Of a stretch of DNA of 42,236 bases, positions 5,113 through 42,133 are shown piece after piece; position 1 is the stretch's first letter; each line of letters starts with the position of its first letter. The notes beneath the pieces were generated by a model that saw nothing but the letters and a program-made list of their open reading frames with translations, ran no database searches and was not told where the DNA came from. This stretch comes from a virus. The stretch lies in the UHGV virus genome UHGV-0797471; one strand, given 5' to 3'. The position numbers and the translations under genes are program-made.

Positions 5113-6308
5113 GACTCCACCGTTATAACGATATTTTTCGGGGTACAGGACGCAGATTCGTTGTATCTGATATCAATGTTTGATGACGACAAAGCCCCCG
5201 GGGATTTCCCAATCGTCAGTTCCTGAATATCGTAATAGCGTGCATTCCCGCCACTCACCACGCCAAGATTCGCCGGTGAGTAAATGCGACTTAAAAGGAC
5301 CGAATCACCAATCATCAGACTATTGATATAGTCGGAAATAGCCTGCTGGATCTGCTGCCCTATCTGTGAGGTATAACCCGTAAAAACTTTTAATTTAATC
5401 AGGGCATAAACAGGCACATCACTGGAACGCGAGAATTTGATTACATGGGGATTGCCGTATTTATCCGGAACCGTAACGGATGTTGTACCGTGAGTGGCTG
5501 TCCCCTGGCCTTTATTCCCTCTGATAGCCTGAGCAATATCCGTTACATCACCGCCATCCACAATTACAGCAACAGAGTGTGGCGGTAACCCGTTACCGTC
5601 CTCCGAACCAGTATCGTTTTCATAGAGTTTGTGGCGGGTTACACCGGTAACATTAGAAACAGCACCATCCAGTGCTTCAAATGGGGTTATTGATGGCAAC
5701 GCAACACTTTGCGACTGGCGGATACGTAACTCAGCGTCAGTTTCTGCCGGAGTGCCCACAGTGGCTGCAGCAGGATTGGTTACCGAAACCCAGCCACGGG
5801 TTGGCGTATTAATTTCAGTGATAGTTCCAGCCAGCGCCGCCACTGCACCACTGACGGAACATGTTGCGGTCACCATCACTGTACCATCCACGCCTACCAC
5901 CACTGAAGCAGGCAAACGCCATATCACATTATTACTGTCTTTCACGCTGCCATTAATGATGGTTGTTCCGGCAGTTCCTGTAAGAAGCAAATCAACCGTA
6001 GAGTTCGTCGCGCCTTTACGTGAAATACCATTTATTTTCACGTTACAGGTCAGTGCAGCCCCATAGCCGGTTGCCGGTGAAAAACAGTTGTAGACAGTTA
6101 TCGCAGTATTATTGGCATCATGAATCGCCAGCGCCATCAGAGCCACCATCTGGCCGTCTTTGCTGTCCGGTTCGAGGTAGGCATCACTGCCATAAATCTG
6201 CTGAAAATAGCTAATCAGGGTGCTGAGTATCGTCTGATAATCAGGCGCACTGATCCCCTCCGCGGTTACCTTTGCAGATAAACCGAGAGAATCAAGGTTC
6301 AGAGCCAT
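5109..6308 (-). CDS. Baseplate J-like protein
   Basis: Size (399 aa) and position in baseplate cluster; overlapping stop/start with neighbours. Confidence 0.5.
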   Translation of the reverse strand: MALNLDSLGLSAKVTAEGISAPDYQTILSTLISYFQQIYGSDAYLEPDSKDGQMVALMALAIHDANNTAITVYNCFSPATGYGAALTCNVKINGISRKGATNSTVDLLLTGTAGTTIINGSVKDSNNVIWRLPASVVVGVDGTVMVTATCSVSGAVAALAGTITEINTPTRGWVSVTNPAAATVGTPAETDAELRIRQSQSVALPSITPFEALDGAVSNVTGVTRHKLYENDTGSEDGNGLPPHSVAVIVDGGDVTDIAQAIRGNKGQGTATHGTTSVTVPDKYGNPHVIKFSRSSDVPVYALIKLKVFTGYTSQIGQQIQQAISDYINSLMIGDSVLLSRIYSPANLGVVSGGNARYYDIQELTIGKSPGALSSSNIDIRYNESASCTPKNIVITVES

Positions 6309-6661
6309 TACGCCTCCGATGTAACAGTCGTTATTCCATAAAGAGTGTCGATTTCAGCGGAAAACATGACACGTCGGGTCGTGGTATCCAGCGTCGTATT
6401 GAAAGAGAGGATTGATTTAACGCCCTGCGTTTCGAGGATGCGCTTACGGATCGCCAGGTTGTAGGTTTCCGGCTTCTGCTTACCGAGTACGGACTGGATC
6501 CACGGAGTCCCCTCGGTGGTGTCGAGAAACCATTGCCCATACCACAATTCGAATCGCGTTTTTACCGCCTGCGCCACGGCCTCCGGTGAGTTAATCAGCC
6601 AGGTGTCATCACCGCTGCCAAAGGTGTAATCGCCATCGGCGTCTTCACGTCTGTATCGCAT
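6308..6661 (-). CDS. Small baseplate protein (gp46/W-like)
   Basis: 117 aa, tightly coupled between the V-like and J-like genes. Confidence 0.45.
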   Translation of the reverse strand: MRYRREDADGDYTFGSGDDTWLINSPEAVAQAVKTRFELWYGQWFLDTTEGTPWIQSVLGKQKPETYNLAIRKRILETQGVKSILSFNTTLDTTTRRVMFSAEIDTLYGITTVTSEA

Positions 6662-7413
6662 CAGTTTACCCCGTCGGTACTGCTTCCACCGCGCTGAACA
6701 CCACCATGAGTGTGCGTATCATCGATTGGCTTGCCGTTAGCCTTCACGCTCCCCAAAAACTCAACAGCACCAGTGATTTTTGAAGCCACACCAGAAACCA
6801 CAGACCCCACCATGCCCCCCATCCAGGTTAACAGGCCATGAATGGTTACTTTCTCAGAAAAATCAGCCAGGGGGGCAACCACATCAAGCCCCCCCGGAGC
6901 GACAATTTTAATTTTCCTGGTATCAGGATTAAGCTCAAAATAGGTGCTGCCGTCGTCACTACGCAACTGTGTGGCACTGGTATTAATACCGCTAATCTTC
7001 CTAGCCTGCGACTGGGGACCGACAATACAAAACGCATCCGATAAATCATGCATTCTGTCATCAACCGTCTCCTGTATCCCGCCGCTCTGCCACCAGAAAT
7101 CAATACAACGATCGGCAAAAACGACAAGACACTCATCCCCAGCTTTTACCGGAAAAGTCAACGTACAGCCTCCGCCGCGCGGGAATACCACTGGCACATC
7201 CACCAGCAATGGGTAATTTTTGGTAATGCGGTTACCGTCGTTATCCTTTTCAACTGACCGGATAGCTGGCTGCACAACCGCCGTCACCGCGTCAGGATCG
7301 AATGACTGAATAATGCCAGGCAAGGCGACACGGATCTGGTTCTTTGTTGTTTCCCGTTCAGATTTAAATGTTTCGGCAAGATCGCCACTGCGGGTCTGGT
7401 CAGTTACTGCCAT
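6661..7413 (-). CDS. Baseplate assembly / spike protein (V-like)
   Basis: 250 aa with Gly-rich C-terminal stretch; position in baseplate operon. Confidence 0.45.
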   Translation of the reverse strand: MAVTDQTRSGDLAETFKSERETTKNQIRVALPGIIQSFDPDAVTAVVQPAIRSVEKDNDGNRITKNYPLLVDVPVVFPRGGGCTLTFPVKAGDECLVVFADRCIDFWWQSGGIQETVDDRMHDLSDAFCIVGPQSQARKISGINTSATQLRSDDGSTYFELNPDTRKIKIVAPGGLDVVAPLADFSEKVTIHGLLTWMGGMVGSVVSGVASKITGAVEFLGSVKANGKPIDDTHTHGGVQRGGSSTDGVN

Positions 7414-10274: not shown

Positions 10275-12280
10275 TAACCCACCCTCACCTGATTACTTCG
10301 CATGACCTGAGCATTTGCAGACTGTTGCCGACGTGCAACCTCATTACCGACAGCGTGCGGATCTCCGCCACCGTAAATGTGGTAGGTATTTTGCTGGTTA
10401 ACCTCTGTCACTTTGCCACTAATTCCCGCCACGGCAGCCTTATTAATCAGCTCTCGAGAATAGATATTTCTTCCATTCTCATGCTGGATAATGCTGCTCA
10501 TCAATGCTGACATGGTTTGCGGATCGCTCATATTCAGGGCAGCCCGGGGATCCACTCCCAGTCGTTGCGATACAGCCCTGATATACGCTGTTGTGTTGTT
10601 ATTATCAGACGCAGGTGCCCAGGTAGAGATAATTTTCTCCACACTGTTTATTCCCCGTCCGGCGTACAGCATTAACTGACGAGCAAGAGCCCGTAATCCA
10701 TCAAAGGCAGTTTCAAATCTGGCAAATCGCCCGCCCGGGCGTTCAAGAGAAGCCCCTGCCTGACCAGCAAAATTAAGGTTTCCCGGATTGTTATTCCGTT
10801 CTCCTCGTTTCGTAGCCTGTGCATATTGTTCCGGCTCAGCACCTGGAATATCTGACTGAATATTTGCGCCTTTTACGGTATGAGGATTACGACCAAAATC
10901 GGTATCAATGCCAAGCCAGCGCAATGAATCTCCAATATTTTGTTTCGTGTAATCCCAGGATGACTTCGCACTGGCACCAATATTTTCGCGATCAGAGTAC
11001 AAATACGCAGCATAAGCCATCCAGCCTTTTAACCACGGCGGGACCGGCAAACCTGATATTTTCCCGAAAGCCCCCAGAACCCTGGATACCCAGACACCCG
11101 CGATGAATGTACCAAGGATTTCCAGTGCATTTTGCCAGCCGCCAACACCATCTTTTAGTTCCAGAAGGTGATCACGAAGCCAGGTGATCGCATCCTTCGC
11201 TTTATCTATTGCCGGTTGCCATTTTTCCCAGTCGATAAGACTGTTACCGCCTTCTTTCCATGTTTTGTAGTCTTCCCACAAGAGACCGAGAGCCACGATC
11301 AGACCGGTAATCAGCCCTATAGGTGACATCCAGAAAGTAGAGTTAAGTATCCGCATGGCGACAACCAGACCGCCGATAACCTCTATCAGGGTTTTCGTTT
11401 CGGCATCCAGTTTCCCCCACCACTCGATGATATCTCCGACACCATCGACTATCCGAAATGCTACCCGCCCGACTATCTCACCCAGCCAGAGGATCCCCTT
11501 TATGACCTTTGTGATGGTGACTTCAATTTTGGGAAAATTTTCAATTATCTTTTTGCGCAGGTTATCAATCTGCCCCGCCAGTCCGTCCGCAAGATTCGAT
11601 CCGATTTTGTCCCGCGCCATCCTGGCCATTTCACCGAGCGATTTCAGCGAGGTCATAAACCGGTTTGACGATAAGGCAGCCTGATCGGCATTAAATCCGA
11701 TCGCTTTCACCATTTCTGAATACTGAGCGCTGAACTGCCCCACTCCGCGACGCATAGCCATCAGGGTATTTTCGTCAATGCCCAGCATCTGCGCATACTG
11801 GTTAGCCCGGTAATACGGCATGCTGCTGAGTTTCTGTCCAACGCCCGTAAAGATAGCAGCCATGTCACGCATGTTACCGCTGGCATCACGGGTCTGTACG
11901 CCCAGGCGATTCAGAAAGCCTTCTGCTCCGGGATTGTTACGAATAAACCGGGAGAGGCTTTCCAGAGAAGATCGCGCAGCGTCCACACTGCCGCCAACCT
12001 GCGAAACCGCATAGCCAATAGACTGAATTCCCTGGACCGTCGCGCCGGTGCGCTGTGACGCCCAGTAAAGATTATCCAGGCCGGAGGCGATCTTAGCCGT
12101 GAAGGCCACCACGGACAGCGCAGCCCCTTCAACAGCCAGCCCCATTTTGATGACATTTGCAGTTGTACCGGCGAGGACAGAACCGAACTTTTTCGCTCCT
12201 GCATCATCCACACGGAAGCCAAGCGAGACGAGGAAATCTTTAATAGTTTCAGCGTTCATTATCCTCTCTCCATTTCTCAA
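10274..12280 (-). CDS. Tail tape measure protein
   Basis: 668 aa; Ala/Gly-rich helical N-terminus with hydrophobic segments; sits after tube and chaperone. Confidence 0.7.
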   Translation of the reverse strand: MRNGERIMNAETIKDFLVSLGFRVDDAGAKKFGSVLAGTTANVIKMGLAVEGAALSVVAFTAKIASGLDNLYWASQRTGATVQGIQSIGYAVSQVGGSVDAARSSLESLSRFIRNNPGAEGFLNRLGVQTRDASGNMRDMAAIFTGVGQKLSSMPYYRANQYAQMLGIDENTLMAMRRGVGQFSAQYSEMVKAIGFNADQAALSSNRFMTSLKSLGEMARMARDKIGSNLADGLAGQIDNLRKKIIENFPKIEVTITKVIKGILWLGEIVGRVAFRIVDGVGDIIEWWGKLDAETKTLIEVIGGLVVAMRILNSTFWMSPIGLITGLIVALGLLWEDYKTWKEGGNSLIDWEKWQPAIDKAKDAITWLRDHLLELKDGVGGWQNALEILGTFIAGVWVSRVLGAFGKISGLPVPPWLKGWMAYAAYLYSDRENIGASAKSSWDYTKQNIGDSLRWLGIDTDFGRNPHTVKGANIQSDIPGAEPEQYAQATKRGERNNNPGNLNFAGQAGASLERPGGRFARFETAFDGLRALARQLMLYAGRGINSVEKIISTWAPASDNNNTTAYIRAVSQRLGVDPRAALNMSDPQTMSALMSSIIQHENGRNIYSRELINKAAVAGISGKVTEVNQQNTYHIYGGGDPHAVGNEVARRQQSANAQVMRSNQVRVG

Positions 12281-32059: not shown

Positions 32060-33361
32060 ATGCCAGACGTTCATGCACAACTTTCTCCATCATCAGCGCA
32101 TCGATGGATGCGCTGCCCAGGAAGTCTGGCGCTGGAGGCCACACAACCGGATAAAGAAACAACTTTTGCAATCGAGGGCACTGCAGCGCACGCGCTTGCT
32201 GAAAAAGTTCTACGAAACAGGCAAAGCCACCCGGAACACTACGCCGGATGCAATGTTTCTATGTTTCTCGGCTCATACCCCCTTCGCGAAAATCCTGATG
32301 ATACATCTGGCCCACAGGTGGATGATGAAATGGTCGAAGCCGTTGGCCGGTATGTTGATACGGTCTGGACTCTTGCACAGAATAATGAACTATTGGTTGA
32401 ACAACGTGTTGATTTCTCACATATAACGGGTGTGGAAGAATCTTTCGGAACTGCCGACGGCATAATCATCGCTGGTAGCGAATTACAAATCCACGACCTG
32501 AAATATGGCAAAGGCGTCCGCATTGATGCAGAACAAAATGAGCAACTACAACTGTATGCTCTGGGTGCTCTCGAACAATTCAGCATGCTGTATGACTTTG
32601 AGACTGTAAGATTATTTATTCACCAGCCAAGGCTCAACCACGTTTCAGAATGGTCGTTAACCGTGCAGGAACTTCAGTCTTTCGGTAAACGAGCACAGGA
32701 GGCCGCAACCAGTGCGATCCTTGTTCTCAATATTGCTGAATGCGAAGGCATTGAGACACTACCGCTGGAAAACTTCATACCTGGAGAAAAGCAGTGCCGC
32801 TTCTGTAAAGCAAAAGCTATTTGCACTGCCCAGAAAATGCAGCATTTACAAACAGCGGCCAGCGACTTTGAAGATCTGACAAAGCCTGTCAGCGAAATAA
32901 TCACCAATGCCAGCGCACGTGTACCTCTGTTAACCATTGAGCAGCTTGCGGAGATCTATAGCCAGGCCGACTTTATTGAGTCCTGGCTAAAGGCAGTACG
33001 GGACCGGGTTCACAATGAACTCAATGCCGGACATCCGGTACCGGGGTTTAAACTGGTAACAGGAAAACAAGGTAACCGGGCCTGGAGTGATGAAGAGGCA
33101 GCTCGCGCACTTCTGAAGGACCAGTTCAGGTACAAAACTGAAGAAGTATTCGACTTTAAACTTATTAGTCCCACAAAAGCCGAAAAACTTATCAAAAAGG
33201 CCAGTCCACGCCGTTGGTCAAAAGTCGAGGCACTGATAACACGAGCTGATGGTAAACCAACCGTCGTTCCCGAGTCAGACCCACGCCCCGCACTCAATAT
33301 CAACCCTGTAAATGATTTCGACGACGTATCCGACGATACGCTAACCGCAGACCTCATCTGA
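32060..33361 (+). CDS. PD-(D/E)XK nuclease, DUF2800 / Cas4-RecB-like
   Basis: N-terminal [15 protein letters not shown] signature of DUF2800; C-terminal Cys cluster [10 protein letters not shown]; upstream of DUF2815 and PolA as in the known phage module. Confidence 0.7.
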
Positions 33362-33376
33362 TTTAAGGAAATACCC

Positions 33377-33925
33377 ATGAAACTGAAGCTGAACAATGTT
33401 CGTCTGGCCTTCCCGTCTCTGTTTGAAGCTAAAACTGTAAACGGCGAAGGCGATCCGCGTTTCTCCGCAGTATTTTTAATGTCTCCCAAACACCCACAAC
33501 TGGAAGAAATCCGTAAAGCTATGAAGCAGGTAGCGAAGGAAAAATGGGGAGAGAAGTGGGAGCCCATTTATAACCAGCTGGAGAAAAAACTCAATCTGTG
33601 CCTGCATGATGGTGATGAAAAAGCAGAGTATGAAGGCTTCCCCGGCAATTTCTTCCTGAATGCTGCTAACAAAGCGCGCCCAGCTGTTCTTGATCGCGAT
33701 CGTTCGCCACTTATTCAGGCTGACGGACGTCCTTATGCAGGGTGCTATGTAAACGCCGTTATCGATATCTGGGCACAGGACAATAATTTCGGTAAACGCA
33801 TTAATGCCTCACTCGGCGGAGTCCAGTTCCTGCGAGACGGCGATGCATTCGCTGGCGGCGGAGTGGCAAGCGCTGACGATTTCGACGATATCAGCGAAGG
33901 TGCTGATGCTGAAGCACTAATTTAA
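33377..33925 (+). CDS. DUF2815-type phage ssDNA-binding protein
   Basis: MKLKLNNVRLAFPSLFEAK... N-terminus typical of DUF2815; acidic C-terminal tail DDFDDISEGADAEALI. Confidence 0.65.
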   Translation: MKLKLNNVRLAFPSLFEAKTVNGEGDPRFSAVFLMSPKHPQLEEIRKAMKQVAKEKWGEKWEPIYNQLEKKLNLCLHDGDEKAEYEGFPGNFFLNAANKARPAVLDRDRSPLIQADGRPYAGCYVNAVIDIWAQDNNFGKRINASLGGVQFLRDGDAFAGGGVASADDFDDISEGADAEALI

Positions 33926-33977
33926 CCCTACTTCATAGACGCCCGGTTAAACACCGGGCTACTGATTAGGCGTATAA

Positions 33978-34607
33978 TCACTCAGGAATCTTAATCTTTC
34001 TCAATTCTTTATTTAGTTCACAGATCTTTTTCTTAGACGGGAAAGTATCATACATCCAAAAACCAACAGTCTCTAAAACTATTATCATAACCATATACAC
34101 AAGATAATTTAAAAGGCCTTCATTTTGCCCTATGGAAATAATGCAGATAATAGAAAAAAGGGTAAACAGCACAAAACACAGAAAGGAAAACAGACGACTA
34201 ATAATAAATAAAAAACCTGAAAAATCAACATTAATAAAAAACACTCCGTTATCTTTCTCTATATAATTCTGAAGCTTAATCAACTGATTTATATACTGTC
34301 TTTTTTCTAATCTATTGCAAATGTAAATAACATCTCTTCGGTTATAAGAGGATTGCAATTTCAGCGCATCACGAATAATTTTATCATTTATTCTTTTTTC
34401 TATGGCTTTCTTATCCTCCTTATCCAGATAACGTTCATACTTAATTAAATATAAAATTAACTTCTTGACATATTTAGGCTCTTTATACTTATAATTAAAA
34501 ATGATCTTTCTTATCCAGACTCCCATAACAATCAAACATGAAAAAATATATCCAGCTATTTTCTCCAGATGCTCTGTATGGTCAATCAAGTATTGGATCA
34601 TATGCAT
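33978..34607 (-). CDS. AT-rich multi-pass membrane protein (moron; candidate superinfection-exclusion / abortive-infection protein)
   Basis: 209 aa with N- and C-terminal hydrophobic helices and a Lys-rich middle; strongly AT-rich; antisense to the replication operon between the SSB and polymerase genes. Confidence 0.5.
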   Translation of the reverse strand: MHMIQYLIDHTEHLEKIAGYIFSCLIVMGVWIRKIIFNYKYKEPKYVKKLILYLIKYERYLDKEDKKAIEKRINDKIIRDALKLQSSYNRRDVIYICNRLEKRQYINQLIKLQNYIEKDNGVFFINVDFSGFLFIISRLFSFLCFVLFTLFSIICIISIGQNEGLLNYLVYMVMIIVLETVGFWMYDTFPSKKKICELNKELRKIKIPE

Positions 34608-34653
34608 AATTAATCTTTTAATCAGTTAATAGAATAAAAACCTAGGTAAACAC

Positions 34654-36717
34654 ATGTCCAATATACTATGGGGCGACCTGGAAACCTATTGCGAAATCCC
34701 TATTACGAACGGTACCCATGCGTATGCCGAAGGCGTTGAAGTGATGCTTTTCGCATGGGCTATCAACGACGGGCCAGTAAACGTGTGGGATATCACTGCC
34801 GGTGGTGGTATTCCACACGGCTTATACGAAGCAATCGCAGACCCTGAAACCCTGCTTTATTTCCATAACTCTCACTTCGACCGCACCGTTCTGCGTTATG
34901 CAATGCCGCGACTGGCACCGCCAGTCGAACGTTGGCGCGACACGATGGTGCAGGCGCTGGCGCACGGTCTCCCGGGGTCTCTGGGGGAACTCTGCGAAGT
35001 ACTAGGCGTCCCGCAAGACAAAGCGAAGGACAAAGAAGGTAAAGCGCTGATCCAGCTGTTCTGTAAGCCACGTCCGAAAAACAGCAAACTGCGTCGGGCC
35101 ACCAGTAAAACCCATCCGGAAGAATGGCGGCGCTTTGTTGCTTACGCCGGACTGGATATCGAAGCAATGCGTGAAGTCTATAAACGTCTGCCGAAGTGGA
35201 ATTATCAGGGGACAGAGCTGGCGCTCTGGCATCGTGATCAGCAGATCAACGACCGGGGCGTCTGCATGGACATGCAACTCGCGCGCGCTGCGATCGAAGC
35301 GGTAGACCAGGAGCAAAAGCGCCTGGCAAAGCGTACACAGGAAATGACTGATGGCGAAGTGCAGGCAGCCACACAACGGGACGCGTTGATTAAGCACATC
35401 GTTGAATCCTACGGTGTGGAGCTACCAGACATGCAACGCAGTACCCTGGAACGTCGTATGGCCGACCCCGATTTATCATCTGCCGTGAAAGAACTGCTGG
35501 CTATCCGCCTGCAAGCCAGTACTACCAGCACCAGTAAATACAAGGCACTGATGAAAGGCGTAAGCCACGACGGGCGCTTACGCGGTACGCTACAGTTCTG
35601 CGGGGCGTCACGTACCGGTCGTTGGGCCGGACGGCTATTCCAGCCCCAGAACCTTCCCCGCCCTTCACTAAAACAGGAACAAATAGACGAAGGCATCGAA
35701 GCACTGAAAGCCGGATGTGCAGACCTGCTGTTTGACAATATCATGGAACTAACCAGTTCAGCGTTACGTGGCTGCATTATCGCGCCAACAGGCAAAAAAC
35801 TAGTGGTAAGTGACTTGTCAAACATTGAAGGCCGTATGCTGGCATGGCTGGCGGGAGAAGAATGGAAACTGAATGCATTCAGAGAGTATGACGCTGGAAC
35901 GGGTCCGGACTTATATAAACTGGCGTATGCAAAAGCTTTCGATATTGCACCAGATGATGTTGATAAACACATGCGTCAGATCGGTAAAGTCATGGAACTC
36001 GGTCTGGGTTATGGAGGTGGTGTATCGGCTTTCATCACTTTTGCTCTGGTTTACGGTCTCGATCTCGACGAGCTGGCGAACGCCGCACTGCCAAACATTC
36101 CCCGCGATGTTATCCGCGAGGCAAAAAGCTGGTACGACGAATCGGTTAAGCGTAAGTCGACCTTTGGCCTGTCCGAGCGTGTATTCATCGCATGTGACTC
36201 GCTCAAGCGCCTGTGGCGCAGGGCGCACCCGGCGACCTGCGATTTCTGGTACGAGCTGGAGCGCACTGTCCGCACAGCAATCGCCACACCGCAAAAAACA
36301 TTGTATTGCGGCTATCTTAAAATCCGACGTGATGGCGCGTGGCTGCGCATACAGCTACCATCCGGACGCGCTGTATGCTACCCGTCTCCGGTTATCGAAC
36401 AAGGGAATATCACCTACATGGGTGTTAACTCTTATTCGCGTAAATGGCAACGACTCAAAACCTACGGCGGAAAGCTGGTGGAGAACGTCACCCAGGCGGC
36501 CGCCCGCGACGTTCTAGCCAGAAACATGCCGCTGATCGAGGGTGCCGGTTACAGCATTGTGCTAACGGTACACGACGAGGTGATCACCGAAGCACCAGAC
36601 ACAGAAGATTTCAACGATAAAGCGCTTTCCGCGCTTCTCTCCACTAACCCCGAATGGGCACCCGATATTCCGCTGAACGCTGGCGGCTTTGAGGCGTACC
36701 ACTACAAAAAAGATTGA
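34654..36717 (+). CDS. Family A DNA polymerase (Pol I-like with 3'-5' exonuclease domain)
   Basis: N-terminal exo motif WGDLETY; polymerase motifs [16 protein letters not shown] and [11 protein letters not shown]; 687 aa. Confidence 0.85.
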
Positions 36718-36781
36718 TATAACTCACCTTATCGAGCTATGGCGACATGCTGAATTCGAGTAAATTAAAGGTACAATACTT

Positions 36782-37543
36782 ATGCAGGAACTAACTGAAA
36801 TGCCGATCAACTATCCATACCCGAGAGAATCTTTTCCTGACTTTTTGAGGGAGTGTGGGTTCACCAATTTTTCCCACGAACAGCGTGAGACTTATGACTG
36901 CTATCGTTTAACGAATGGCGTAATTGTTAACCTTTACACCACCCGGACCATTCAGTTTCAAGGGAACCCTCAAGAACGTCCCAATGTTGAAACTGCAATA
37001 ATGTCCCATTTAGGAACGCCCCCCACGGCAACACCACTAGCCGTAGAACAGCCATCTGAGCTTCCCAAAAAGATATTCATTGTTCACGGCCATGACCATA
37101 CTGCAAAGGAACAACTTGAGCTAATCCTTCATAAACTTGGATTACCAGACCATTTCATTTTGCAGAATACGGGAGGGACTGGACTCACCATTATTGAAGA
37201 GCTTGAACGTGAAATTGGGCAAGGACAAACTGCTACTCGTTTCGGGATTGTTCTTTTGACACCTGATGATATGGGATACTCAAAGCGCGCCGGTGAAGCA
37301 GAAATCCAACCCCGCGCAAGACAGAACGTTGTACTCGAGATGGGTATGCTTCTTTCGTCCTTAGGGCGCAGCAATGTAGCAATCCTTCAGAAACAGCACC
37401 TAGAACAGCCTTCTGATGCTAACGGGATTTTGTATCTGAATTTCAACGACCATGTACGTGAAACAGTTCCTCGTCTAGTGCAACGGTTACAAAATTCTGG
37501 TTTCGAATTTACACAAGCTCAAATAGCTAACGCTTCCTCGTAA
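36782..37543 (+). CDS. TIR-like domain protein (COG4271 / PF10137-type nucleotide-binding TIR-like), with 95-aa N-terminal extension
   Basis: KIFIVHGHD...GIVLLTPDDMGY...ARQNVVLEMGMLLSSLGRSNVAIL matches the hallmark motifs of this family as recalled; AT-richer than flanks; followed by its own terminator. Confidence 0.6.
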   Translation: MQELTEMPINYPYPRESFPDFLRECGFTNFSHEQRETYDCYRLTNGVIVNLYTTRTIQFQGNPQERPNVETAIMSHLGTPPTATPLAVEQPSELPKKIFIVHGHDHTAKEQLELILHKLGLPDHFILQNTGGTGLTIIEELEREIGQGQTATRFGIVLLTPDDMGYSKRAGEAEIQPRARQNVVLEMGMLLSSLGRSNVAILQKQHLEQPSDANGILYLNFNDHVRETVPRLVQRLQNSGFEFTQAQIANASS

Positions 37544-37565
37544 TTACCCCCTTATTGTTGATTAC

Positions 37566-37590
37566 AACCCTGCATTGCGGGGTTTTTTAT
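37566..37590 (+). terminator. Intrinsic terminator after the first TIR-like gene
   Basis: CCCTGC-ATT-GCGGGG stem-loop followed by TTTTTT. Confidence 0.55.
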
Positions 37591-37778
37591 TTGGGAATAA
37601 AAACCCTATGTCATTTAAATACCGGGACAGTCCGCTTTATTACCGGACTGCACGGGAGGCTTTGCGCCTTGAACAGTCCAGCGGGTACGACCGGGCGATG
37701 CAGGTCTGGGCCAAAGCGAACGTCGGTTTGATTTTTGTCTGATGCAGAACATGCGCGAAAAGCGTAAGGAGGTGGACG

Positions 37779-37973
37779 ATGTCTAATATCGATAATAAAG
37801 GTTGGGGGTTCCCCGCCCTGTCGAAAAAAGCACATTTCTTTAATTCGGGGGAAGCCATATCACTATGCGGAAAATGGATGTTCACAGGTATCAGGATTGA
37901 CGAATGGCATGACCATCCTGAGAACTGCGCTATCTGCATGAAGAAACGCAAAAAGCAGGAAGGCGAAAGCTAA
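37779..37973 (+). CDS. Small Cys/His-rich protein (putative zinc-binding), 64 aa
   Basis: Strong TAAGGAGGT Shine-Dalgarno 7 nt upstream; C-x..H-x-H..C-x2-C pattern; stop overlaps the VRR-NUC start. Confidence 0.4.
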   Translation: MSNIDNKGWGFPALSKKAHFFNSGEAISLCGKWMFTGIRIDEWHDHPENCAICMKKRKKQEGES

Positions 37974-38257
37974 TGGCCTATGAACGTGAAAACCTAATCG
38001 AAAAGCACCTCGTCGCTGAAGTAAAAAAGGCTGGCGGGGTTGCCTTTAAGTTCGTATCTCCCGGTCTCCGCTCGGTACCAGATCGCATTGTTCTGCTACC
38101 CGGCGGTCGCATCGTCTTTGTCGAATGCAAAGCACCAGGCAAACCACCACGACCTGATCAGTTGCGCGAGCATGAACGTCTGCGAAAACTGGGCTTTACC
38201 GTGGTAGTACTGGATAGTAAGGAGCTTTCATGTATATTAGGCAAAAAATTACAATAG
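37973..38257 (+). CDS. VRR-NUC domain nuclease
   Basis: PDRIVLLPGGRIVFVECKAPGKPPRPDQLREHERLRKLGFTVVV matches the VRR-NUC core. Confidence 0.75.
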   Translation: MAYERENLIEKHLVAEVKKAGGVAFKFVSPGLRSVPDRIVLLPGGRIVFVECKAPGKPPRPDQLREHERLRKLGFTVVVLDSKELSCILGKKLQ

Positions 38258-38272
38258 GAGTCTGTGTAAGCT

Positions 38273-39190
38273 ATGGCTAAGCAACAAACGAAAGAAATAA
38301 ACCAAGATGATGTAAAAGACAACAAAAATATGCCACCTCATATATGCGGCATTATTATGCCAATTGCGGACATAGAAGGTTATCCCACTGGACATTGGAG
38401 AAATGTTCATGACATTATTTGTGAAGCATCAAATGATGCCGGATTCAAGGCAAATTTGGTAAGTTCAGATGATGATGTTGCAGTAATACAAAAACGAATT
38501 GTTCAAAATCTTTATGAAAACCCCATAGTTGTTTGCGATATAAGTGCTCGAAACGCTAATGTAATGTTTGAATTAGGAATGCGTCTCGCATTTGACAAAC
38601 CGACCGTAATTATTAAGGACGAGCGCACTCCTTATAGCTTTGACATTTCATCAATTGAACATTTAGAGTACCCTTCGGATTTAAGATACCAATCAATCAA
38701 TTTATTCAAAGAAAGACTTGCGAGCAAGATAAAAGAAACATATTTAAAGTCAGTAACTGATCCTGAATACACAACATTCCTCAAACATTTTGGCACTTTC
38801 AAAGTTGCACAACTAGACCAGAAAGAAGTATCAGAAACTGAGTATCTGGCATCTGAGATTAAAGATATCAAATCATTATTGATATCTCTTAGGGCAACAG
38901 CAACGACAAAATCCAGATTTTTCGACTCACCGAAAAATTACTCGCAGCAGGAAATTGACAACTCTGTAGATATTATTAAAAATGGAGTTGCCAGTTATAC
39001 TATAAGGAGTGAAGGATTTAGTATATCAAAATCAGCACTAGAAAAGTTACGCCAAAGACTACACAACGCAGGATTTCAAGTCGAGCAAATAGTATTGACA
39101 GGAAAAGAAGTAATTATTCATCTGTCATCACCTTTAATAAATGAAGAAGAAAATATTTTTAAAGATGCAATAGTAACAGCACTATTATAA
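38273..39190 (+). CDS. Second TIR-like / nucleoside 2-deoxyribosyltransferase-like fold protein with about 150-aa C-terminal extension
   Basis: IVVCDISARNANVMFELGMRLAFDKPTVII parallels the ARQNVVLEMG core of 36782-37543; clearly AT-rich; own hairpin terminator downstream. Confidence 0.5.
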   Translation: MAKQQTKEINQDDVKDNKNMPPHICGIIMPIADIEGYPTGHWRNVHDIICEASNDAGFKANLVSSDDDVAVIQKRIVQNLYENPIVVCDISARNANVMFELGMRLAFDKPTVIIKDERTPYSFDISSIEHLEYPSDLRYQSINLFKERLASKIKETYLKSVTDPEYTTFLKHFGTFKVAQLDQKEVSETEYLASEIKDIKSLLISLRATATTKSRFFDSPKNYSQQEIDNSVDIIKNGVASYTIRSEGFSISKSALEKLRQRLHNAGFQVEQIVLTGKEVIIHLSSPLINEEENIFKDAIVTALL

Positions 39191-39202
39191 ATAACATTTT
39201 TA

Positions 39203-39238
39203 AAACAACAAAAGGTCTAAATTGGCCTTTTGTTGTTT
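39203..39238 (+). terminator. AT-rich hairpin terminator after the second TIR-like gene
   Basis: AACAACAAAAGG-loop-CCTTTTGTTGTT, about 12-bp stem. Confidence 0.45.
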
Positions 39239-39252
39239 AGGAGCCATATTAT

Positions 39253-40647
39253 ATGCCCCCAAAATATATACCTCGCCCCTACCAAGTTCTCATTATCAAC
39301 CACGAAACCGAAACCCTGCGCGGCAACATCTGGGCGGGGATGGGAATGGGTAAAACCGTGGCAACGCTCACTGCGCTGGAAGATCTCTTTATGGCAGGGG
39401 CAGAAACATGCCCCGCACTGGTCCTCGCGCCGCTGCGCGTGGCTGCCAGCACATGGCCGGATGAAGCACTGAAGTGGGGACATTTGCGCAATATCGAGGT
39501 GCAGCCAATTATTGGTAATGCCAAAGCGCGCTCTATGGCGCTGACGAACAGCAACGCAAGCGTGTTCACCATCAACTACGATAACCTTGTCTGGCTGATT
39601 GAAGAATTGGGAGAACGATGGCCGTTCGGTACTGTCATTCCAGATGAAAGCACCCGGCTAAAATCCTTCCGGCTGCGCGGTGGTGGTAAGCGCGCGGCGG
39701 CGCTGGGCAAAGTGGCGCATAAGTATGTCCGGCGCTGGATAAATCTCACCGGTACGCCAGCACCGAACGGCCTGGTAGATTTGTGGGGACAATCGTGGTT
39801 TGTGGACCAGGGGCAACGTCTCGGGCGCACTTACGGCGCGTTTACCTCACGCTGGTTCAACTCGATACAGTTTCCGGGGCAGAGCTGGACCAAACTGGAG
39901 CCTTTTGCTCACTCACAGGGTGAAATACAGCGAGCGTTAGCCGATGTAACCCTCTCGCTGGATGCGGCCGACTGGTTCGATATCAAAGACCCCATCCATA
40001 ACGTAATCCGCGTGGATATGCCACCGAAGGCCCGTCAGCAGTATCGTGAAATGGAAAAGGAAATGTTCCTCGAGCTGAATGGCGAAGGCATCGAAGCACC
40101 GAACGCCGCGGCAAAGACACTGAAGTGTCTGCAAATCGCCAGCGGCGCAGTATACACAGATGACACCGGAAGTTGGTCAGAACTGCATGACACCAAACTA
40201 CAGGCGCTGGACAGCATACTGACCGAAGCAGCTGGCGCACCTGTGCTGGTTGCTTATCACTGGAAACACGATCTTGAACGCTTGCTTAAAGCATTCCCTC
40301 GCGGTCGTCACCTCGACCAGGATCCACAGACACTGCGCGACTGGAATTCCGGAAAGATTCCTGTTCTCTTTGCACACCCAGCCAGCGCGGGCCACGGCCT
40401 GAACATGCAGGACGGCGGAAATATACTGGTATTTTTCTCACACTGGTGGGACCTGGAGCAATATCAGCAAATTATTGAACGTATCGGCCCCACCAGGCAG
40501 ATACAGGCCGGACACAATCGTCCGGTATTTATTCACCACATTATTGCTGCCGACACTATGGATGAAATGGTGATGGAGCGGCGCAACTCAAAACGAACAG
40601 TGCAGGACATCCTGCTCGATGCCATGAAAAAGAGAGGTATAGCATGA
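39253..40647 (+). CDS. SNF2-family helicase
   Basis: Walker A GMGMGKTV; DExx-like IPDESTRLK; 464 aa; follows VRR-NUC as in the known phage module. Confidence 0.8.
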   Translation: MPPKYIPRPYQVLIINHETETLRGNIWAGMGMGKTVATLTALEDLFMAGAETCPALVLAPLRVAASTWPDEALKWGHLRNIEVQPIIGNAKARSMALTNSNASVFTINYDNLVWLIEELGERWPFGTVIPDESTRLKSFRLRGGGKRAAALGKVAHKYVRRWINLTGTPAPNGLVDLWGQSWFVDQGQRLGRTYGAFTSRWFNSIQFPGQSWTKLEPFAHSQGEIQRALADVTLSLDAADWFDIKDPIHNVIRVDMPPKARQQYREMEKEMFLELNGEGIEAPNAAAKTLKCLQIASGAVYTDDTGSWSELHDTKLQALDSILTEAAGAPVLVAYHWKHDLERLLKAFPRGRHLDQDPQTLRDWNSGKIPVLFAHPASAGHGLNMQDGGNILVFFSHWWDLEQYQQIIERIGPTRQIQAGHNRPVFIHHIIAADTMDEMVMERRNSKRTVQDILLDAMKKRGIA

Positions 40648-40844
40648 GCGAGAAACCCGACGATTTACTCACCCCGGATGAAGTATGCCAAAAGTTAGGT
40701 ATTACACAGAAAACGCTATGTGAGTGGAATATTAAGCATCGTCATCGGGCTATCCTGGCACCAATTCGTTTCAGTGCAAAAGTAGTTCGTTATGAGCGCC
40801 GAAATATCGACGCTTTTATTCAAAAATGTCGCAGCCAGTATTAA
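40644..40844 (+). CDS. AlpA/MerR-type HTH DNA-binding protein (possible excisionase / regulator)
   Basis: 66 aa; LTPDEVCQKLGITQKTLCEW HTH; adjacent to integrase. Confidence 0.55.
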   Translation: MSEKPDDLLTPDEVCQKLGITQKTLCEWNIKHRHRAILAPIRFSAKVVRYERRNIDAFIQKCRSQY

Positions 40845-42133
40845 CCTCGCCGCCGTAGCAATGCCACCTGCGCAAGTATGCTCCGCTCGTGAGCCTCGAA
40901 AGCTTCGCGCTTCAACGCAATCTCTTCCTGTAAAATCTCATCAGAAAAGTCGTAATGTTCTGCCATCGGGTCATCTGACTTGCTGGAGTGGTGAAGGCAA
41001 AGGAGGCTGATTTCCCTTCGGTCTGAGCGGGAATAGCCTCTTTCCTTCATCAAGGCAATAACATTGCTCTTAAGGAATTTACGGCACATCGTATTAAATG
41101 CACCGTCTTTCCCTTTAACAGTCCCATCATGTTTTATTCCTTTTACAGCCCCGTCCGGGCTGTATGTTTTCACCAGCTTATCCAGTGATCGTTTTGAAAA
41201 TGGCTGCATTGGATCACGTGGCTGCAAAAATACATAATCCCTGTTGCACTCAGGAACTGAATCACGCCAGGCTTTCTGCTCGTCGATAATCCGCCGGATC
41301 TCAGGGGTTATCGGCAGGCGGAAAGCCTTTTGTGTTTTCATAGCCCCTCGCATGCCGATAACCCCTTCCGGATAAACAATTTCACCAGCCTCCTCGTGAA
41401 CGTAGTCCCAGCGCAGGTTATGGACATTAATCGGACGAACACCAGTGATGATCATGAAGCGAACAGCATTCTTCTGGTGTACAGAGGTGCAGGCAGCAAC
41501 ATTGAGCCAGAGTCGGGCGATTGATTCAATATCGGTAAAAAGCCGTGTGGGGGTAGGTTTCTGTACGCGGGAGGAAACATAATCATCTGGCAGACTGGCG
41601 GCAACATTGCGGCCGTTGCAAAGAGTAGGTGCGCAGAACTTCCAGAACCGACGGAGCTCGGCAAACAACTCCAGGGCGTTATTGTTCGAGCGAGTAGCGA
41701 TCCACTCGTCCAGCACTTCCACCAGCCGATTGTATGTTACGTCGCTGAACACCTCGCGCTCGCCGAACGTTGCTTTAATCCGGTCGATACGCACCCCGTA
41801 GGTTGTGAAACTGTCCGGGCTCAGCTTCTGCCGGGCGACTTTGGCTTTGAGGTCATCCCGGTACATTTCCAGCGCTGCATGTACGGACTCTGCCCGCAGG
41901 CCACCGTCAGCCATACCTAGCGCTTTTTCGCGCGCCAGCTGGATAGCGAGCTCCGGCCACTCGCCGAGCTTTTTACCTTTGAGGCCCATCTTTTTTGGAA
42001 ACTCGGCGTAAAATGTAACCTTACCGGCTTTGCTGAAATCGATACGGAGATAGTTCTCTTTTTCGTATTTGGAACGGCGAGCCACGCCGGAAGCAGCGAG
42101 GATGATTTTGGCGGCAGCAACACAGATTTTCAT
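40841..42133 (-). CDS. int: Tyrosine integrase (P4-like, divergent)
   Basis: 430 aa; N-terminal arm-binding-like segment (KYEKENYLRIDFSKAGKVTFYAEF...LAREKA); ITGVRP box-I-like motif; C-terminal His/Tyr-containing region; terminal position in prophage. Confidence 0.65.
   Translation of the reverse strand: MKICVAAAKIILAASGVARRSKYEKENYLRIDFSKAGKVTFYAEFPKKMGLKGKKLGEWPELAIQLAREKALGMADGGLRAESVHAALEMYRDDLKAKVARQKLSPDSFTTYGVRIDRIKATFGEREVFSDVTYNRLVEVLDEWIATRSNNNALELFAELRRFWKFCAPTLCNGRNVAASLPDDYVSSRVQKPTPTRLFTDIESIARLWLNVAACTSVHQKNAVRFMIITGVRPINVHNLRWDYVHEEAGEIVYPEGVIGMRGAMKTQKAFRLPITPEIRRIIDEQKAWRDSVPECNRDYVFLQPRDPMQPFSKRSLDKLVKTYSPDGAVKGIKHDGTVKGKDGAFNTMCRKFLKSNVIALMKERGYSRSDRREISLLCLHHSSKSDDPMAEHYDFSDEILQEEIALKREAFEAHERSILAQVALLRRRG

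What the first reader, a model, noticed from the sequence alone, without database searches (positions are those of the whole stretch)
36718..39252. Pair of paralogous TIR-like genes bracketing VRR-NUC inside the replication module
Seen in sequence: ORF 36782-37543 carries KIFIVHGHD and ARQNVVLEMGMLLSSLGRSNVAIL. ORF 38273-39190 carries the same core, IVVCDISARNANVMFELGMRLAFDKPTVII, at its N-terminus with an unrelated C-terminal half. Both are AT-richer than the flanking polymerase, VRR-NUC and SNF2 genes, and each is followed by its own hairpin plus T-run. A small Cys/His ORF with a strong Shine-Dalgarno (37779-37973) sits between them.

Established knowledge: these motifs are the signature of the COG4271 / PF10137 TIR-like fold, related to nucleoside 2-deoxyribosyltransferases. 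Bacterial TIR and TIR-like domains act as NAD+-consuming or nucleotide-processing effectors in Thoeris, CBASS and related defences.

Inference: a prophage-encoded two-gene TIR-like cassette acting as superinfection exclusion / abortive infection, or as a counter-defence module. I do not recognise this arrangement as a named system.
Basis: partly seen in the sequence, partly recalled or inferred. Interest (0 to 1): 0.75.

Follow-up and report, generated by a model that had tools for sequence, protein, structure and literature searches.

The report
Two independent TIR/NDT-like prophage cargo genes
Two unrelated, separately acquired single-gene cassettes in an E. coli prophage's replication operon each encode a TIR/nucleoside-deoxyribosyltransferase-type enzyme domain fused to a variable domain; one is a catalogued phage-defence candidate, and the other belongs to a large unnamed family that is probably also a stand-alone anti-phage gene.

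Summary
The sequence features are real. ORF1 (36782-37543) and ORF2 (38273-39190) exist, carry the quoted motifs, are AT-richer than their neighbours (GC 0.45 and 0.34 against about 0.54), and each ends in a hairpin.

ORF1 is a clear PF10137 (Cap12/Pycsar-type) TIR-like protein and a full-length match to PADLOC candidate PDC-S35 (E 1e-108). It has a small, variable N-terminal domain.

ORF2 is not a detectable paralogue of ORF1 (BLASTP E 0.01-0.04; profile-profile probability 47-59%). It belongs to a separate family with no Pfam or PADLOC model and more than 4,400 clusters in at least 8 phyla. Its N-domain is strongly conserved and NDT/TIR-like. Its C-terminal third is hypervariable.

The two genes are not a two-gene system. 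They occupy two of three independently varying cargo slots in this yfhL-integrated prophage family; relatives carry SIR2, BstA, methyltransferase or DUF4406 in those slots. ORF1 occurs with four other slot-C contents. ORF2 relatives occur alone in lambdoid prophages, small islands and as a single Vibrio integron cassette.

The most likely function is two separate single-protein abortive-infection defences. No activity was tested. ORF1 is ordinary; ORF2 is the interesting part.

The parts
36706..37604 (+). Cargo slot B cassette (ORF1 plus its hairpin). In relative L004 it is absent and PolA abuts the ANR gene.
   Evidence: blastn break-points against L004; annotation of L004
36782..37543 (+). 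ORF1, 253 aa: PDC-S35-type single-gene defence candidate (variable N-domain plus PF10137 TIR-like domain)
   Evidence: PADLOC PDLC05003 E 1.2e-108, full length; PF10137 E 2.9e-31; phrog_16442; RefSeq name 'TIR domain-containing protein'
36803..37015 (+). ORF1 N-terminal domain (about residues 8-78): confidently modelled small alpha/beta domain, variable across the family, with weak RnlA-NTD / RNase HIII-N (TBP-like) profile hits. Proposed sensor.
   Evidence: pLDDT above 90; PF15935 hit in 12/47 members (best E 8.5e-4) and PF11858 in 4/47, all sub-threshold; 35% mean pairwise identity against 73% for the TIR domain
37070..37447 (+). ORF1 TIR-like (PF10137) domain, residues 97-222. Invariant motifs are HGHD, TPDD and RARQNVVLEMG, including the putative catalytic E186.
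   Evidence: aligned to Cap12 'NVVFEFG' (7un8, 9lmq); Foldseek top hit is Cap12 TIR-STING
37566..37594 (+). Hairpin (8 bp, 5 GC pairs) plus T-run: terminator-like site closing the ORF1 cassette
   Evidence: -11.3 kcal/mol, z -1.7
37608..37786 (+). Frameshifted ANR-family regulator pseudogene (prophage backbone, not part of either cassette)
   Evidence: RefSeq annotation; intact in L004 and L005
37779..37973 (+). Small Cys/His ORF (64 aa) with a strong SD. Its end overlaps the VRR-NUC start. Backbone or variable gene of unknown function.
   Evidence: phrog_2358 E 2.6e-25
37973..38257 (+). VRR-NUC / PD-(D/E)XK nuclease (backbone replication/recombination gene)
   Evidence: phrog_93 endonuclease E 3.4e-31; PF08774 E 0.002, sub-threshold; RefSeq name
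38221..39270 (+). Cargo slot C cassette. Homology with relatives stops inside the VRR-NUC 3' end and resumes just inside SNF2. It contains ORF2 and its hairpin.
   Evidence: blastn break-points at 38220/38227 and 39271-39289 against L002-L005
38273..39190 (+). ORF2, 305 aa: member of a large unnamed family (conserved NDT/TIR-like N-domain, helical linker, hypervariable C-domain)
   Evidence: 4,466 clusters at E<=1e-3, none with a Pfam domain among the 120 listed; model pLDDT 73.7
38330..38797 (+). ORF2 N-domain (about residues 20-175): flavodoxin-like, NDT/TIR-like. Invariant residues include D89, S91, N94, N96, E100, G102, R104, D108, K109, E129, H130, Y133, P134, D136 and R138.
   Evidence: invariant columns; weak PF05014 and PF10137 hits; PADLOC TIR effector in 52/52; fold; hhalign against the ORF1 family
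38945..39187 (+). ORF2 C-terminal domain (residues 225-305): confidently modelled beta-beta-alpha-beta-beta-alpha unit, hypervariable. Proposed sensor or autoinhibitory domain.
   Evidence: pLDDT 85-91; 16% mean pairwise identity in the family against 69% for the N-domain; only one representative cluster in 1.84 billion
39203..39238 (+). 15-bp AT-rich hairpin with a U-rich 3' arm, immediately upstream of the SNF2 ribosome-binding site
   Evidence: -20.8 kcal/mol, z -4.8, 0/200 shuffles; sequence read

Best explanation
The region holds two separate, independently acquired single-gene cargo cassettes ('morons'). They sit in two of three variable slots of the early replication/recombination operon of a temperate E. 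coli phage integrated next to yfhL.

ORF1 is a PDC-S35-type protein. It has a variable N-terminal sensor domain fused to a Cap12/Pycsar-type TIR-like domain. By analogy with Cap12, that domain is expected to hydrolyse NAD+ through the conserved Glu (E186) once activated.

ORF2 belongs to a different, unnamed family. It has a very conserved NDT/TIR-like N-glycosidase domain (putative catalytic E100), a helical linker and a hypervariable C-terminal domain.

My proposal is that each acts alone as an abortive-infection defence. The variable domain recognises a component of an infecting phage. That recognition relieves inhibition or drives oligomerisation of the enzyme domain. The enzyme then destroys NAD+ (ORF1) or NAD+ or a nucleotide (ORF2) and stops phage replication.

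Shown here: the domain identities, cassette boundaries, independent assortment and genomic contexts. Inferred: enzymatic activity, substrate, trigger, expression in the lysogen and the defence phenotype.
For: Independent cassettes:
- Break-points are at 36706-37604 and 38221-39270.
- L004 lacks ORF1 and has BstA-C in slot C.
- ORF1 is paired with Arc/Rha genes, a minus-strand hypothetical and DUF6338.
- A 70%-identical ORF1 sits in the same PolA slot of a Serratia prophage with other slot-C genes.
- The slots elsewhere hold SIR2, BstA-C, Nmad5, methyltransferase, DUF4406 and YfbU.
- The two cassettes have different GC, 0.45 against 0.34.

ORF1:
- PF10137 at 108 bits and PDC-S35 at E 1e-108.
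- The Cap12 alignment includes the NVVxExG motif, and Cap12 is the top fold hit.
- Relatives lie in islands with an integrase plus an SMC/AAA gene, or with Mrr and PemK.

ORF2 domain identity:
- All 52 sampled members hit a PADLOC TIR-effector model.
- 48/52 weakly hit PF05014.
- BFVD hits are NDT and CMP-hydrolase proteins, including a 303-aa full-length analogue.
- The D..N.N..E.G motif is invariant.

ORF2 architecture and context:
- The N-domain is 69% identical across the family against 16% for the C-domain.
- The C-domain is unique among 1.84 billion representatives.
- Gene length stays at 260-330 aa across phyla, with median intergenic gaps of 247 and 145 nt.
- A homologue is a single-gene attC-flanked cassette in a Vibrio superintegron.
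- Other homologues sit in the nin region of Klebsiella lambdoid prophages and in a small Pseudomonas island.
- No neighbour family occurs in more than 3 of 146 immediate neighbours. Those neighbours include MADS, PARIS, SoFic, AbiU, AbiLi, dCTPase, pVip, TIR_2, ParE and integrases.

Precedent: Swarozyc is a single TIR-like protein with helical stalks and an auxiliary domain that binds the phage portal and depletes NAD+ (bioRxiv 10.64898/2026.05.01.722283).
Against: - No activity, phenotype or expression data exist for either gene. I found no paper that tests PDC-S35. 'PDC' only means candidate.
- ORF2 is below the curated cut-off of every Pfam family (16.2 against 24.7 bits for PF10137; 13.2 against 28.8 for PF05014).
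- Both models have only moderate confidence (pLDDT about 73).
- Neither cassette has a convincing promoter of its own (11 sites found against 10 expected), and both are co-oriented with the early operon. They might therefore be expressed only during lytic growth and serve the phage.
- The same slots also hold DNA-modification-type genes (methyltransferase, Nmad5, DUF4406).
- The neighbour survey had no matched control, so enrichment for defence genes is descriptive only.
Confidence: 0.6

Rival explanations
1. One reading: ORF1 and ORF2 work together as one two-gene TIR-like system, for example with one sensing and signalling and the other executing, as in Thoeris.
For: Both lie within 2.5 kb on the same strand. 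Both have TIR/NDT-type cores. In E. coli every ORF2 copy (24/24 genomes) lies beside ORF1.
Against: - Those 24 copies are one near-clonal prophage (at least 99.9% identity), so they count as a single event.
- ORF1 occurs with four other slot-C contents.
- ORF2 relatives occur with no PF10137 gene nearby in Klebsiella, Pseudomonas, Vibrio, Aeromonas and Serratia, and as a one-gene integron cassette.
- No neighbour family recurs in more than 3 of 146 neighbours.
- Three backbone genes separate the two ORFs.
- The two cassettes have different GC.
- There is no Thoeris ThsA-like partner and no Thoeris hit in PADLOC.
Confidence: 0.05
2. ORF2, and possibly ORF1, serves the phage rather than the host. 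It could be a nucleotide-metabolism, DNA-modification or counter-defence enzyme, such as an NDT/MilB-like hydrolase that reshapes nucleotide pools or destroys immune signalling nucleotides during lytic growth.
For: - PF05014 is the most frequent weak Pfam hit (48/52).
- Related prophages carry DUF4406 (an NDT-like family), Nmad5 and a methyltransferase in the equivalent slots.
- Both genes are co-oriented with and embedded in the early operon, without a clear promoter of their own.
Against: - ORF2 relatives occur outside phages, in a chromosomal integron cassette and in small islands.
- A metabolic enzyme would not be expected to carry a hypervariable, lineage-specific C-terminal third.
- Neighbours are often defence or toxin-antitoxin genes.
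- One lysogen tolerates an IS1 insertion in ORF2. This is compatible with an accessory gene but not diagnostic.
- ORF1 matches a defence-island-derived candidate model over its full length.
Confidence: 0.2
3. The genes are selfish addiction or toxin modules: a fused toxin-antitoxin with an NAD+/nucleotide-degrading toxin domain kept in check by its own variable domain. They would stabilise the element and play no role in phage defence.
For: The architecture is a conserved enzymatic domain plus a variable appended domain. The genes are mobile and stand alone. ParE, BrnA and PemK toxin-antitoxin genes are among the neighbours.
Against: Fused toxin-antitoxin proteins studied so far (for example CapRel; from my own knowledge) are themselves defence proteins, so this rival overlaps with the main model. 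Addiction normally needs an unstable antitoxin, and nothing here suggests one. The IS1-disrupted copy shows the gene can be lost.
Confidence: 0.1
4. ORF2 is not an enzyme of this superfamily at all. The flavodoxin-like fold and the short motif would be convergent, and the protein would be a regulator or scaffold, for example receiver-like.
Against: - The weak hits are consistent: 52/52 members hit one TIR-effector model (down to E 1e-8) and 48/52 hit NDT.
- The two best solved-structure hits and most viral hits are Cap12, MilB or NDT.
- The invariant residues coincide with the catalytic D...E-x-G helix of these enzymes, and the PF10137-type HLExPSD motif is also shared.
- No helicase motif or helicase Pfam hit exists.
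Confidence: 0.05

Closest known systems
PADLOC PDC-S35 (single-gene 'phage defence candidate')
   Same: ORF1 matches model PDLC05003 end to end (residues 10-253 on model positions 3-245 of 245, E 1.2e-108). It also matches the four other PDC-S35 models through its TIR-like half. Like the candidate, it stands alone, with no conserved partner.
   Different: Nothing differs structurally. However, PDC-S35 is only a candidate inferred from genome context, and I found no paper naming or testing it. ORF2 does not match it.
Cap12 (TIR-STING / TIR-SAVED CBASS effectors) and PycTIR (Pycsar effector), Pfam PF10137
   Different: Neither protein has a STING, SAVED or cNMP-binding sensor domain. There is no CD-NTase or pyrimidine cyclase in the early region of the prophage. 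ORF1 scores 35 bits against the 450-bit cut-off of the NCBIfam Cap12 equivalogs. These are therefore not CBASS or Pycsar effectors.
Swarozyc (DUF4062 TIR-like single-protein defence; bioRxiv 10.64898/2026.05.01.722283)
   Same: The logic matches what I propose, especially for ORF2. An N-terminal TIR-like/NDT-related NADase domain with a catalytic Glu near residue 100 is followed by helical stalks and an auxiliary domain. That auxiliary domain binds a phage structural protein and triggers NAD+ depletion and abortive infection.
   Different: ORF2 and its 51 sampled relatives show no DUF4062 hit among the families listed (the 25 most frequent of 35 at E<=1), and ORF2 itself has none of its four hits there. 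Their conserved motifs also differ. No trigger or activity is known for ORF2.
Nucleoside 2-deoxyribosyltransferase superfamily (PF05014; MilB CMP/hmCMP hydrolase; phage NDT-like proteins; DUF4406)
   Different: All scores are below the family cut-off. ORF2 has an extra helical linker and a hypervariable roughly 80-residue C-domain that these small metabolic enzymes lack. Its distribution is that of mobile cargo.
BstA and other prophage 'moron' defences (BstA: PMC8585504; HepS: PMC13043305)
   Same: These are single prophage-encoded proteins proposed or shown to cause abortive infection of other phages. In a sister prophage a BstA-C-domain gene occupies exactly the slot that ORF2 occupies here. 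A BstA_C cassette also lies about 4 kb from the Vibrio ORF2 homologue.
   Different: The effector chemistry is unrelated and there is no sequence similarity.

Membership tests
Pfam PF10137 (CAP12/Pycsar TIR-like domain): ORF1 | Profile match above the curated gathering score | tested here: met
   108.4 bits against a cut-off of 24.7, residues 97-222 on model positions 1-118 of 119. All 47 sampled relatives also match.
Pfam PF10137: ORF1 | Conserved catalytic Glu in the NVVxExG helix | tested here: met
   E186 is invariant in 47 sequences. It aligns with the Glu of 'NVVFEFG' in Cap12 chains 7un8 and 9lmq. That this Glu is catalytic comes from established knowledge of TIR NADases (see for the general statement).
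Pfam PF10137: ORF1 | NAD+ glycohydrolase activity | not testable with these tools
   Needs a biochemical assay.
PADLOC PDC-S35: ORF1 | Full-length match to the candidate's HMM and a stand-alone gene | tested here: met
   PDLC05003 E 1.2e-108, covering 243 of 245 model positions. No conserved neighbour across four contexts.
PADLOC PDC-S35: ORF1 | Demonstrated anti-phage activity | not testable with these tools
   No paper in the held library names PDC-S35. 'PDC' means candidate only.
CBASS Cap12 / Pycsar PycTIR effector: ORF1 and ORF2 | A cyclic-nucleotide sensor domain (STING, SAVED, cNMP-binding) fused to the TIR domain | tested here: not met
   No such Pfam domain in either protein. NCBIfam Cap12 equivalogs score 30-35 bits against a cut-off of 450. 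The ORF1 N-domain gives only weak RnlA-NTD and DUF3378 hits.
CBASS Cap12 / Pycsar PycTIR effector: ORF1 and ORF2 | An adjacent CD-NTase or pyrimidine cyclase gene | tested here: not met
   Neighbours are PolA, ANR, VRR-NUC, SNF2, DUF2800, SSB, prim-pol and the repressor. No cyclase appears in Pfam or PADLOC scans.
Thoeris | A ThsB-type TIR protein together with a ThsA effector (SIR2 or Macro/TM plus SLOG) | tested here: not met
   No Thoeris model is hit in PADLOC. There is no SIR2, SLOG or Macro gene in the region.
Pfam PF10137 or PF05014: ORF2 | Profile match above the curated gathering score | tested here: not met
   PF10137 scores 16.2 bits against 24.7, and PF05014 scores 13.2 against 28.8. 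Across 52 relatives the best E-values are 0.011 and 0.0037.
TIR/NDT superfamily (Pfam clans STIR and Nribosyltransf): ORF2 N-domain | Flavodoxin-like fold closest to TIR/NDT enzymes, with a conserved Glu on the helix after the central strand | tested here: inconclusive
Swarozyc / DUF4062: ORF2 | DUF4062 (PF13271) domain | tested here: not met
   ORF2 has four Pfam hits at E<=1 and none is DUF4062. DUF4062 is also absent from the 25 most frequent of the 35 families hit by the 52 members. The resemblance is architectural only.
   They co-occur only in one clonal E. coli prophage lineage. They are separable everywhere else.

The most novel reading that the evidence does not exclude
ORF2 may represent an unrecognised, very widespread single-protein immune family. 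It has more than 4,400 90%-identity clusters and was found in at least 335 species spanning Proteobacteria, Bacteroidota, Acidobacteriota, Verrucomicrobiota, Planctomycetota and others. An unusually conserved NDT/TIR-like N-glycosidase domain (50-66% identity across phyla) is coupled through a helical linker to a hypervariable, lineage-specific C-terminal sensor. The gene moves as a one-gene module between prophage moron slots, integron cassettes and small islands. Its substrate might not be NAD+ but a nucleoside monophosphate, as its closer resemblance to MilB and NDT enzymes hints.
Probability: 0.4. Interest if true: 0.7.

Novelty: new variant of a known kind. Interest (0 to 1): 0.5.

Why it matters
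ORF1 adds little. It is one more copy of an already catalogued but untested candidate (PDC-S35), although its fixed position after PolA in prophages of two genera makes it an easy system to test.

ORF2 matters more. It belongs to a large, cross-phylum family with no Pfam or PADLOC model. It has the hallmarks of a stand-alone immune protein: a conserved catalytic domain, a hypervariable appended domain, monocistronic mobility, and prophage, integron and island contexts. If confirmed, it would add a new family to the growing set of single-protein TIR/NDT-type abortive-infection systems, and it might reveal a new substrate or trigger.

The work also defines three cargo hotspots (SSB|PolA, PolA|ANR, VRR-NUC|SNF2) in a common family of E. 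coli prophages integrated next to yfhL. These slots exchange SIR2, BstA, TIR-like, methyltransferase, Nmad5 and DUF4406 genes. They offer a convenient place to mine further defence or counter-defence genes.

Tried and rejected
- Pairwise BLASTP and two hhalign runs gave only a short core match, so I rejected paralogy.
- Sequence searches of ORF2 and of its family profile against PDB chains found nothing meaningful.
- Searching 1.84 billion representatives with the ORF2 C-domain returned only its own cluster. I could therefore not test whether that domain is shared with other effectors.
- Literature searches for PDC-S35, PF10137 plus prophage, the phage names and COG4271 found nothing relevant.
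- DefensePredictor and a domain-centric discovery paper do not mention these families. The mobile-integron defence preprint mentions neither TIR nor NDT.
- Brenes & Laub 2025 (E. coli prophage defences) is not held, so I cannot exclude that one of these genes was tested there.
- The promoter scan showed no excess of sigma-70-like sites (11 found against 10 expected).
- The Rfam scan of 33800-40900 found no RNA family.
- My first blastn script failed because loci are stored in one file. I repeated it correctly.
- I considered CBASS, Pycsar and Thoeris membership and rejected each for lack of a sensor domain, cyclase or ThsA partner.
- The neighbour survey has no matched control, so I do not claim statistical enrichment.

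Full report
**1. What is in the sequence**

The window is an E. coli prophage integrated beside yfhL. The 36600-39300 stretch is 100% identical in about 21 complete E. coli genomes. It is at least 80% covered in 24 of 5,426 genomes, and it matches three deposited phage records (vB_EcoM-689R2, -611R5, -606R2).

The finding lies in the early replication/recombination operon, which reads as follows:
- DUF2800 nuclease, 32060-33361
- Enc34-type SSB, 33377-33925
- an AT-rich minus-strand ORF, 33978-34607
- PolA, 34654-36717
- ORF1, 36782-37543
- a frameshifted ANR-family regulator, about 37608-37786
- a 64-aa Cys/His ORF, 37779-37973
- VRR-NUC, 37973-38257
- ORF2, 38273-39190
- SNF2 helicase, 39253-40647
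- an HTH protein, then the integrase on the opposite strand

GC content is 0.451 for ORF1 and 0.344 for ORF2 (GC3 0.258). The flanking genes are PolA at 0.541, VRR-NUC at 0.491 and SNF2 at 0.546.

ORF1 is followed by an 8-bp GC-rich hairpin and a T-run at 37566-37594. It folds at -11.3 kcal/mol with z -1.7. ORF2 is followed by a 15-bp AT-rich hairpin at 39203-39238, whose U-rich 3' arm runs into the SNF2 ribosome-binding site. It folds at -20.8 kcal/mol with z -4.8.

**2. ORF1**

ORF1 is a well-supported PF10137 protein. It scores 108.4 bits against a cut-off of 24.7, covering residues 97-222. It also matches PADLOC model PDC-S35 end to end (E 1.2e-108). 'PDC' stands for 'phage defence candidate', meaning a gene inferred from context and not tested. 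I found no paper naming PDC-S35.

Its nearest solved relatives are Cap12 TIR-STING proteins. The alignment runs through the helix NVVLEMG (ORF1) / NVVFEFG (Cap12). Cap12 is also the top Foldseek hit for the model.

In 47 relatives the TIR-like half is 73% identical on average, with invariant HGHD, TPDD and RARQNVVLEMG motifs. The N-terminal roughly 80 residues are only 35% identical.

That N-domain is modelled with pLDDT above 90. It gives only weak hits to the RnlA N-terminal domain (12/47 members, best E 8.5e-4) and to the RNase HIII N-domain (4/47). I treat a TBP-like nucleic-acid-binding fold as a lead, not a result.

ORF1 has no STING, SAVED or cNMP-binding domain, no cyclase lies nearby, and it scores far below the NCBIfam Cap12 cut-off. 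It is not a CBASS or Pycsar effector.

Relatives sit in other mobile contexts:
- a V. cholerae island with an integrase and an SMC/AAA gene
- an island with an integrase, an Mrr nuclease and PemK
- the same post-PolA slot of a Serratia prophage

**3. ORF2**

ORF2 has no above-threshold Pfam, NCBIfam or PDB sequence match. Its only PADLOC hit is a CBASS 'Effector TIR' model (E 1.1e-6). It nevertheless belongs to a large family: 4,466 clusters at E<=1e-3, almost all unnamed, a few labelled 'RNA helicase'.

Residues 20-190 are 69% identical on average and contain many invariant positions:
- C25 G26 M29 P30
- H41 W42
- D89 S91 N94 N96 E100 G102 R104 D108 K109
- E129 H130 Y133 P134 D136 R138

Residues 191-305 are only 16% identical.

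All 52 sampled members hit the same PADLOC TIR-effector model (best E 1e-8). In addition, 48/52 weakly hit PF05014 (nucleoside 2-deoxyribosyltransferase) and 17/52 weakly hit PF10137.

The AlphaFold model (pLDDT 73.7) shows three parts:
- a flavodoxin-like N-domain
- long helices at 139-162 and 188-211
- a compact, confident C-domain at 231-304

Profile-profile comparison with the ORF1 family aligns NVMFELGMRLA...IEHLEYPSD with NVVLEMGMLLS...QHLEQPSD, at E 9e-5 to 2e-4 and probability 47-59%. I conclude that the ORF2 N-domain is a divergent member of the TIR/NDT superfamily with an intact Asp...Glu-x-Gly catalytic helix. It is not a member of any defined family and not a recent paralogue of ORF1 (BLASTP E 0.01-0.04).

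**4. Are the two genes one system?**

No. Alignment with sister prophages places sharp homology breaks at three segments:
- 36706-37604, containing ORF1
- 38221/38228 to 39270/39288, containing ORF2
- 33926-34653, containing the AT-rich minus-strand ORF

These are three independently varying cargo slots. Slot contents in relatives:
- L004 has no gene in the ORF1 slot, a BstA-C-domain gene in the ORF2 slot and Nmad5 in the first slot.
- L005 has SIR2, a divergent TIR-like gene and DUF6338.
- L002 pairs ORF1 with Arc/Rha regulators.
- L003 pairs ORF1 with an unrelated minus-strand gene.
- Other relatives carry a methyltransferase, DUF4406 or YfbU after PolA.

In E. coli, ORF2 exists only in the 24 genomes carrying this near-clonal prophage. 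In one of them it is split by IS1.

Outside E. coli, ORF2 relatives have no PF10137 neighbour. They occur in:
- the nin region of Klebsiella lambdoid prophages
- a small Pseudomonas integrative element
- beside an integrase remnant in Serratia
- a Vibrio parahaemolyticus superintegron, as a one-gene cassette bounded by attC-type repeats (L012 5849-5975 and 6823-6959), a few cassettes from a BstA_C cassette

**5. Wider survey of ORF2 relatives**

A scan of one genome per species found 335 loci. The 80 retrieved loci span Proteobacteria, Bacteroidota, Acidobacteriota, Verrucomicrobiota, Planctomycetota, Lentisphaerota, Nitrospinota and Bdellovibrionota. N-domain identity to ORF2 is 46-69%.

Gene length is nearly constant at 260-330 aa. 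Median intergenic gaps are 247 nt upstream and 145 nt downstream, and only 5 loci have a tightly coupled neighbour on either side. This indicates a monocistronic unit.

Among 146 immediate neighbours, no family occurs more than three times. Neighbours include:
- MADS, PARIS (AriA/B), SoFic, AbiU, AbiLi, dCTPase, pVip and several PDC candidates
- TIR_2, ParE, BrnA, Fic, integrases and transposases
- ordinary housekeeping genes

This survey has no matched control, so it is descriptive. It is nevertheless what one sees for stand-alone defence genes.

The C-domain of this allele has a single representative cluster among 1.84 billion proteins. This underlines how fast that part of the protein turns over.

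**6. Mechanism**

Shown:
- two separate mobile one-gene cassettes
- each encodes a conserved TIR/NDT-type catalytic domain plus a fast-evolving second domain
- both occupy slots that hold known defence genes in relatives

Inferred: each protein is an autoinhibited N-glycosidase. The variable domain (N-terminal in ORF1, C-terminal in ORF2) would sense a phage component and license oligomerisation or activation. The result would be NAD+ depletion (ORF1, by analogy with Cap12) or NAD+/nucleotide hydrolysis (ORF2, substrate open), and then abortive infection.

The closest worked example is Swarozyc. It is a single DUF4062 TIR-like protein with helical stalks and an auxiliary domain that binds the phage portal and depletes NAD+; an E97A mutant is inactive. 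ORF2 resembles it in layout but shows no DUF4062 match.

The main rival is a phage-serving nucleotide-metabolism or counter-defence role for ORF2. The NDT/MilB-like fold matches favour it, as do the modification-type genes in sister slots and the lack of an evident promoter. Against it stand the non-phage contexts and the hypervariable C-domain.

**7. Verdict**

It is wrong about paralogy and about a two-gene cassette.

ORF1 is a new copy of a known candidate. ORF2 is the valuable lead: an unnamed, cross-phylum family that looks like a new variant of the single-protein TIR/NDT abortive-infection theme. Nothing functional has been tested here.

Noticed in passing
window 33926-34653 (ORF 33978-34607, minus strand): This is a third cargo slot between SSB and PolA. 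It holds a very AT-rich ORF (GC 0.287) of 209 aa with a hydrophobic C-terminus. It matches phrog_10579 and has no Pfam or PADLOC hit. Sister prophages carry SIR2, Nmad5, DUF4145 or an antirepressor in this slot, so it may be another defence or accessory gene.
   Followed up: partly
window 37608-37786: The ANR-family regulator gene is frameshifted in the E. coli prophages that carry this ORF1 allele (L001-L003). It is intact in L004 (no ORF1) and L005 (divergent TIR-like gene).
   Followed up: partly
NZ_AP045179.1 1259624-1261318 (hit H69): In one E. coli genome, ORF2 is interrupted by an IS1 insertion. The gene is therefore dispensable for the lysogen.
   Followed up: no
L012 1-12822 (Vibrio parahaemolyticus contig JBCIHY010000022.1): This is a superintegron array with 19 attC-type repeats. 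The ORF2 homologue (6001-6822) is exactly one cassette. A BstA_C-domain cassette lies at 10681-11553, alongside acetyltransferase and other small cassettes.
   Followed up: partly
ORF1 residues 226-245 (window 37457-37516) and ORF2 residues 253-272 (window 39029-39088): There is a short local similarity, RETVPRLVQRLQNSGFEFTQ against KSALEKLRQRLHNAGFQVEQ (BLASTP E 0.01). The two stretches lie in different structural contexts: the last helix of the TIR-like domain and a helix of the ORF2 C-domain. It may be chance and is unexplained.
   Followed up: no
L024 (Serratia marcescens LSOB01000017.1) 5001-5762: A 70%-identical ORF1 homologue sits in the same post-PolA slot of a related Serratia prophage. 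DUF4145 is in the first slot and unrelated genes precede SNF2. The association of this TIR-like cassette with the PolA slot therefore crosses genera.
   Followed up: partly
L018 (ON470588.1) whole record: The deposited 'phage genomes' start inside the SNF2 helicase gene and end in host genes (yfhH-like regulator, pgpC, tadA). They look like prophage extractions rather than packaged genomes with true termini.
   Followed up: no
loci L026-L105: In 64 of 79 loci the nearest upstream neighbour of the ORF2 homologue is on the same strand, against 41 of 67 for the downstream neighbour. This may reflect integron-like arrays or read-through expression. I did not examine it further.
   Followed up: no
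window 39253-40647: The backbone SNF2 helicase gives weak PADLOC hits to DpdE, ZorD and DrmD helicase models (E 1e-12 to 1e-6). These are most likely generic SNF2 similarity, not a defence role.
   Followed up: no
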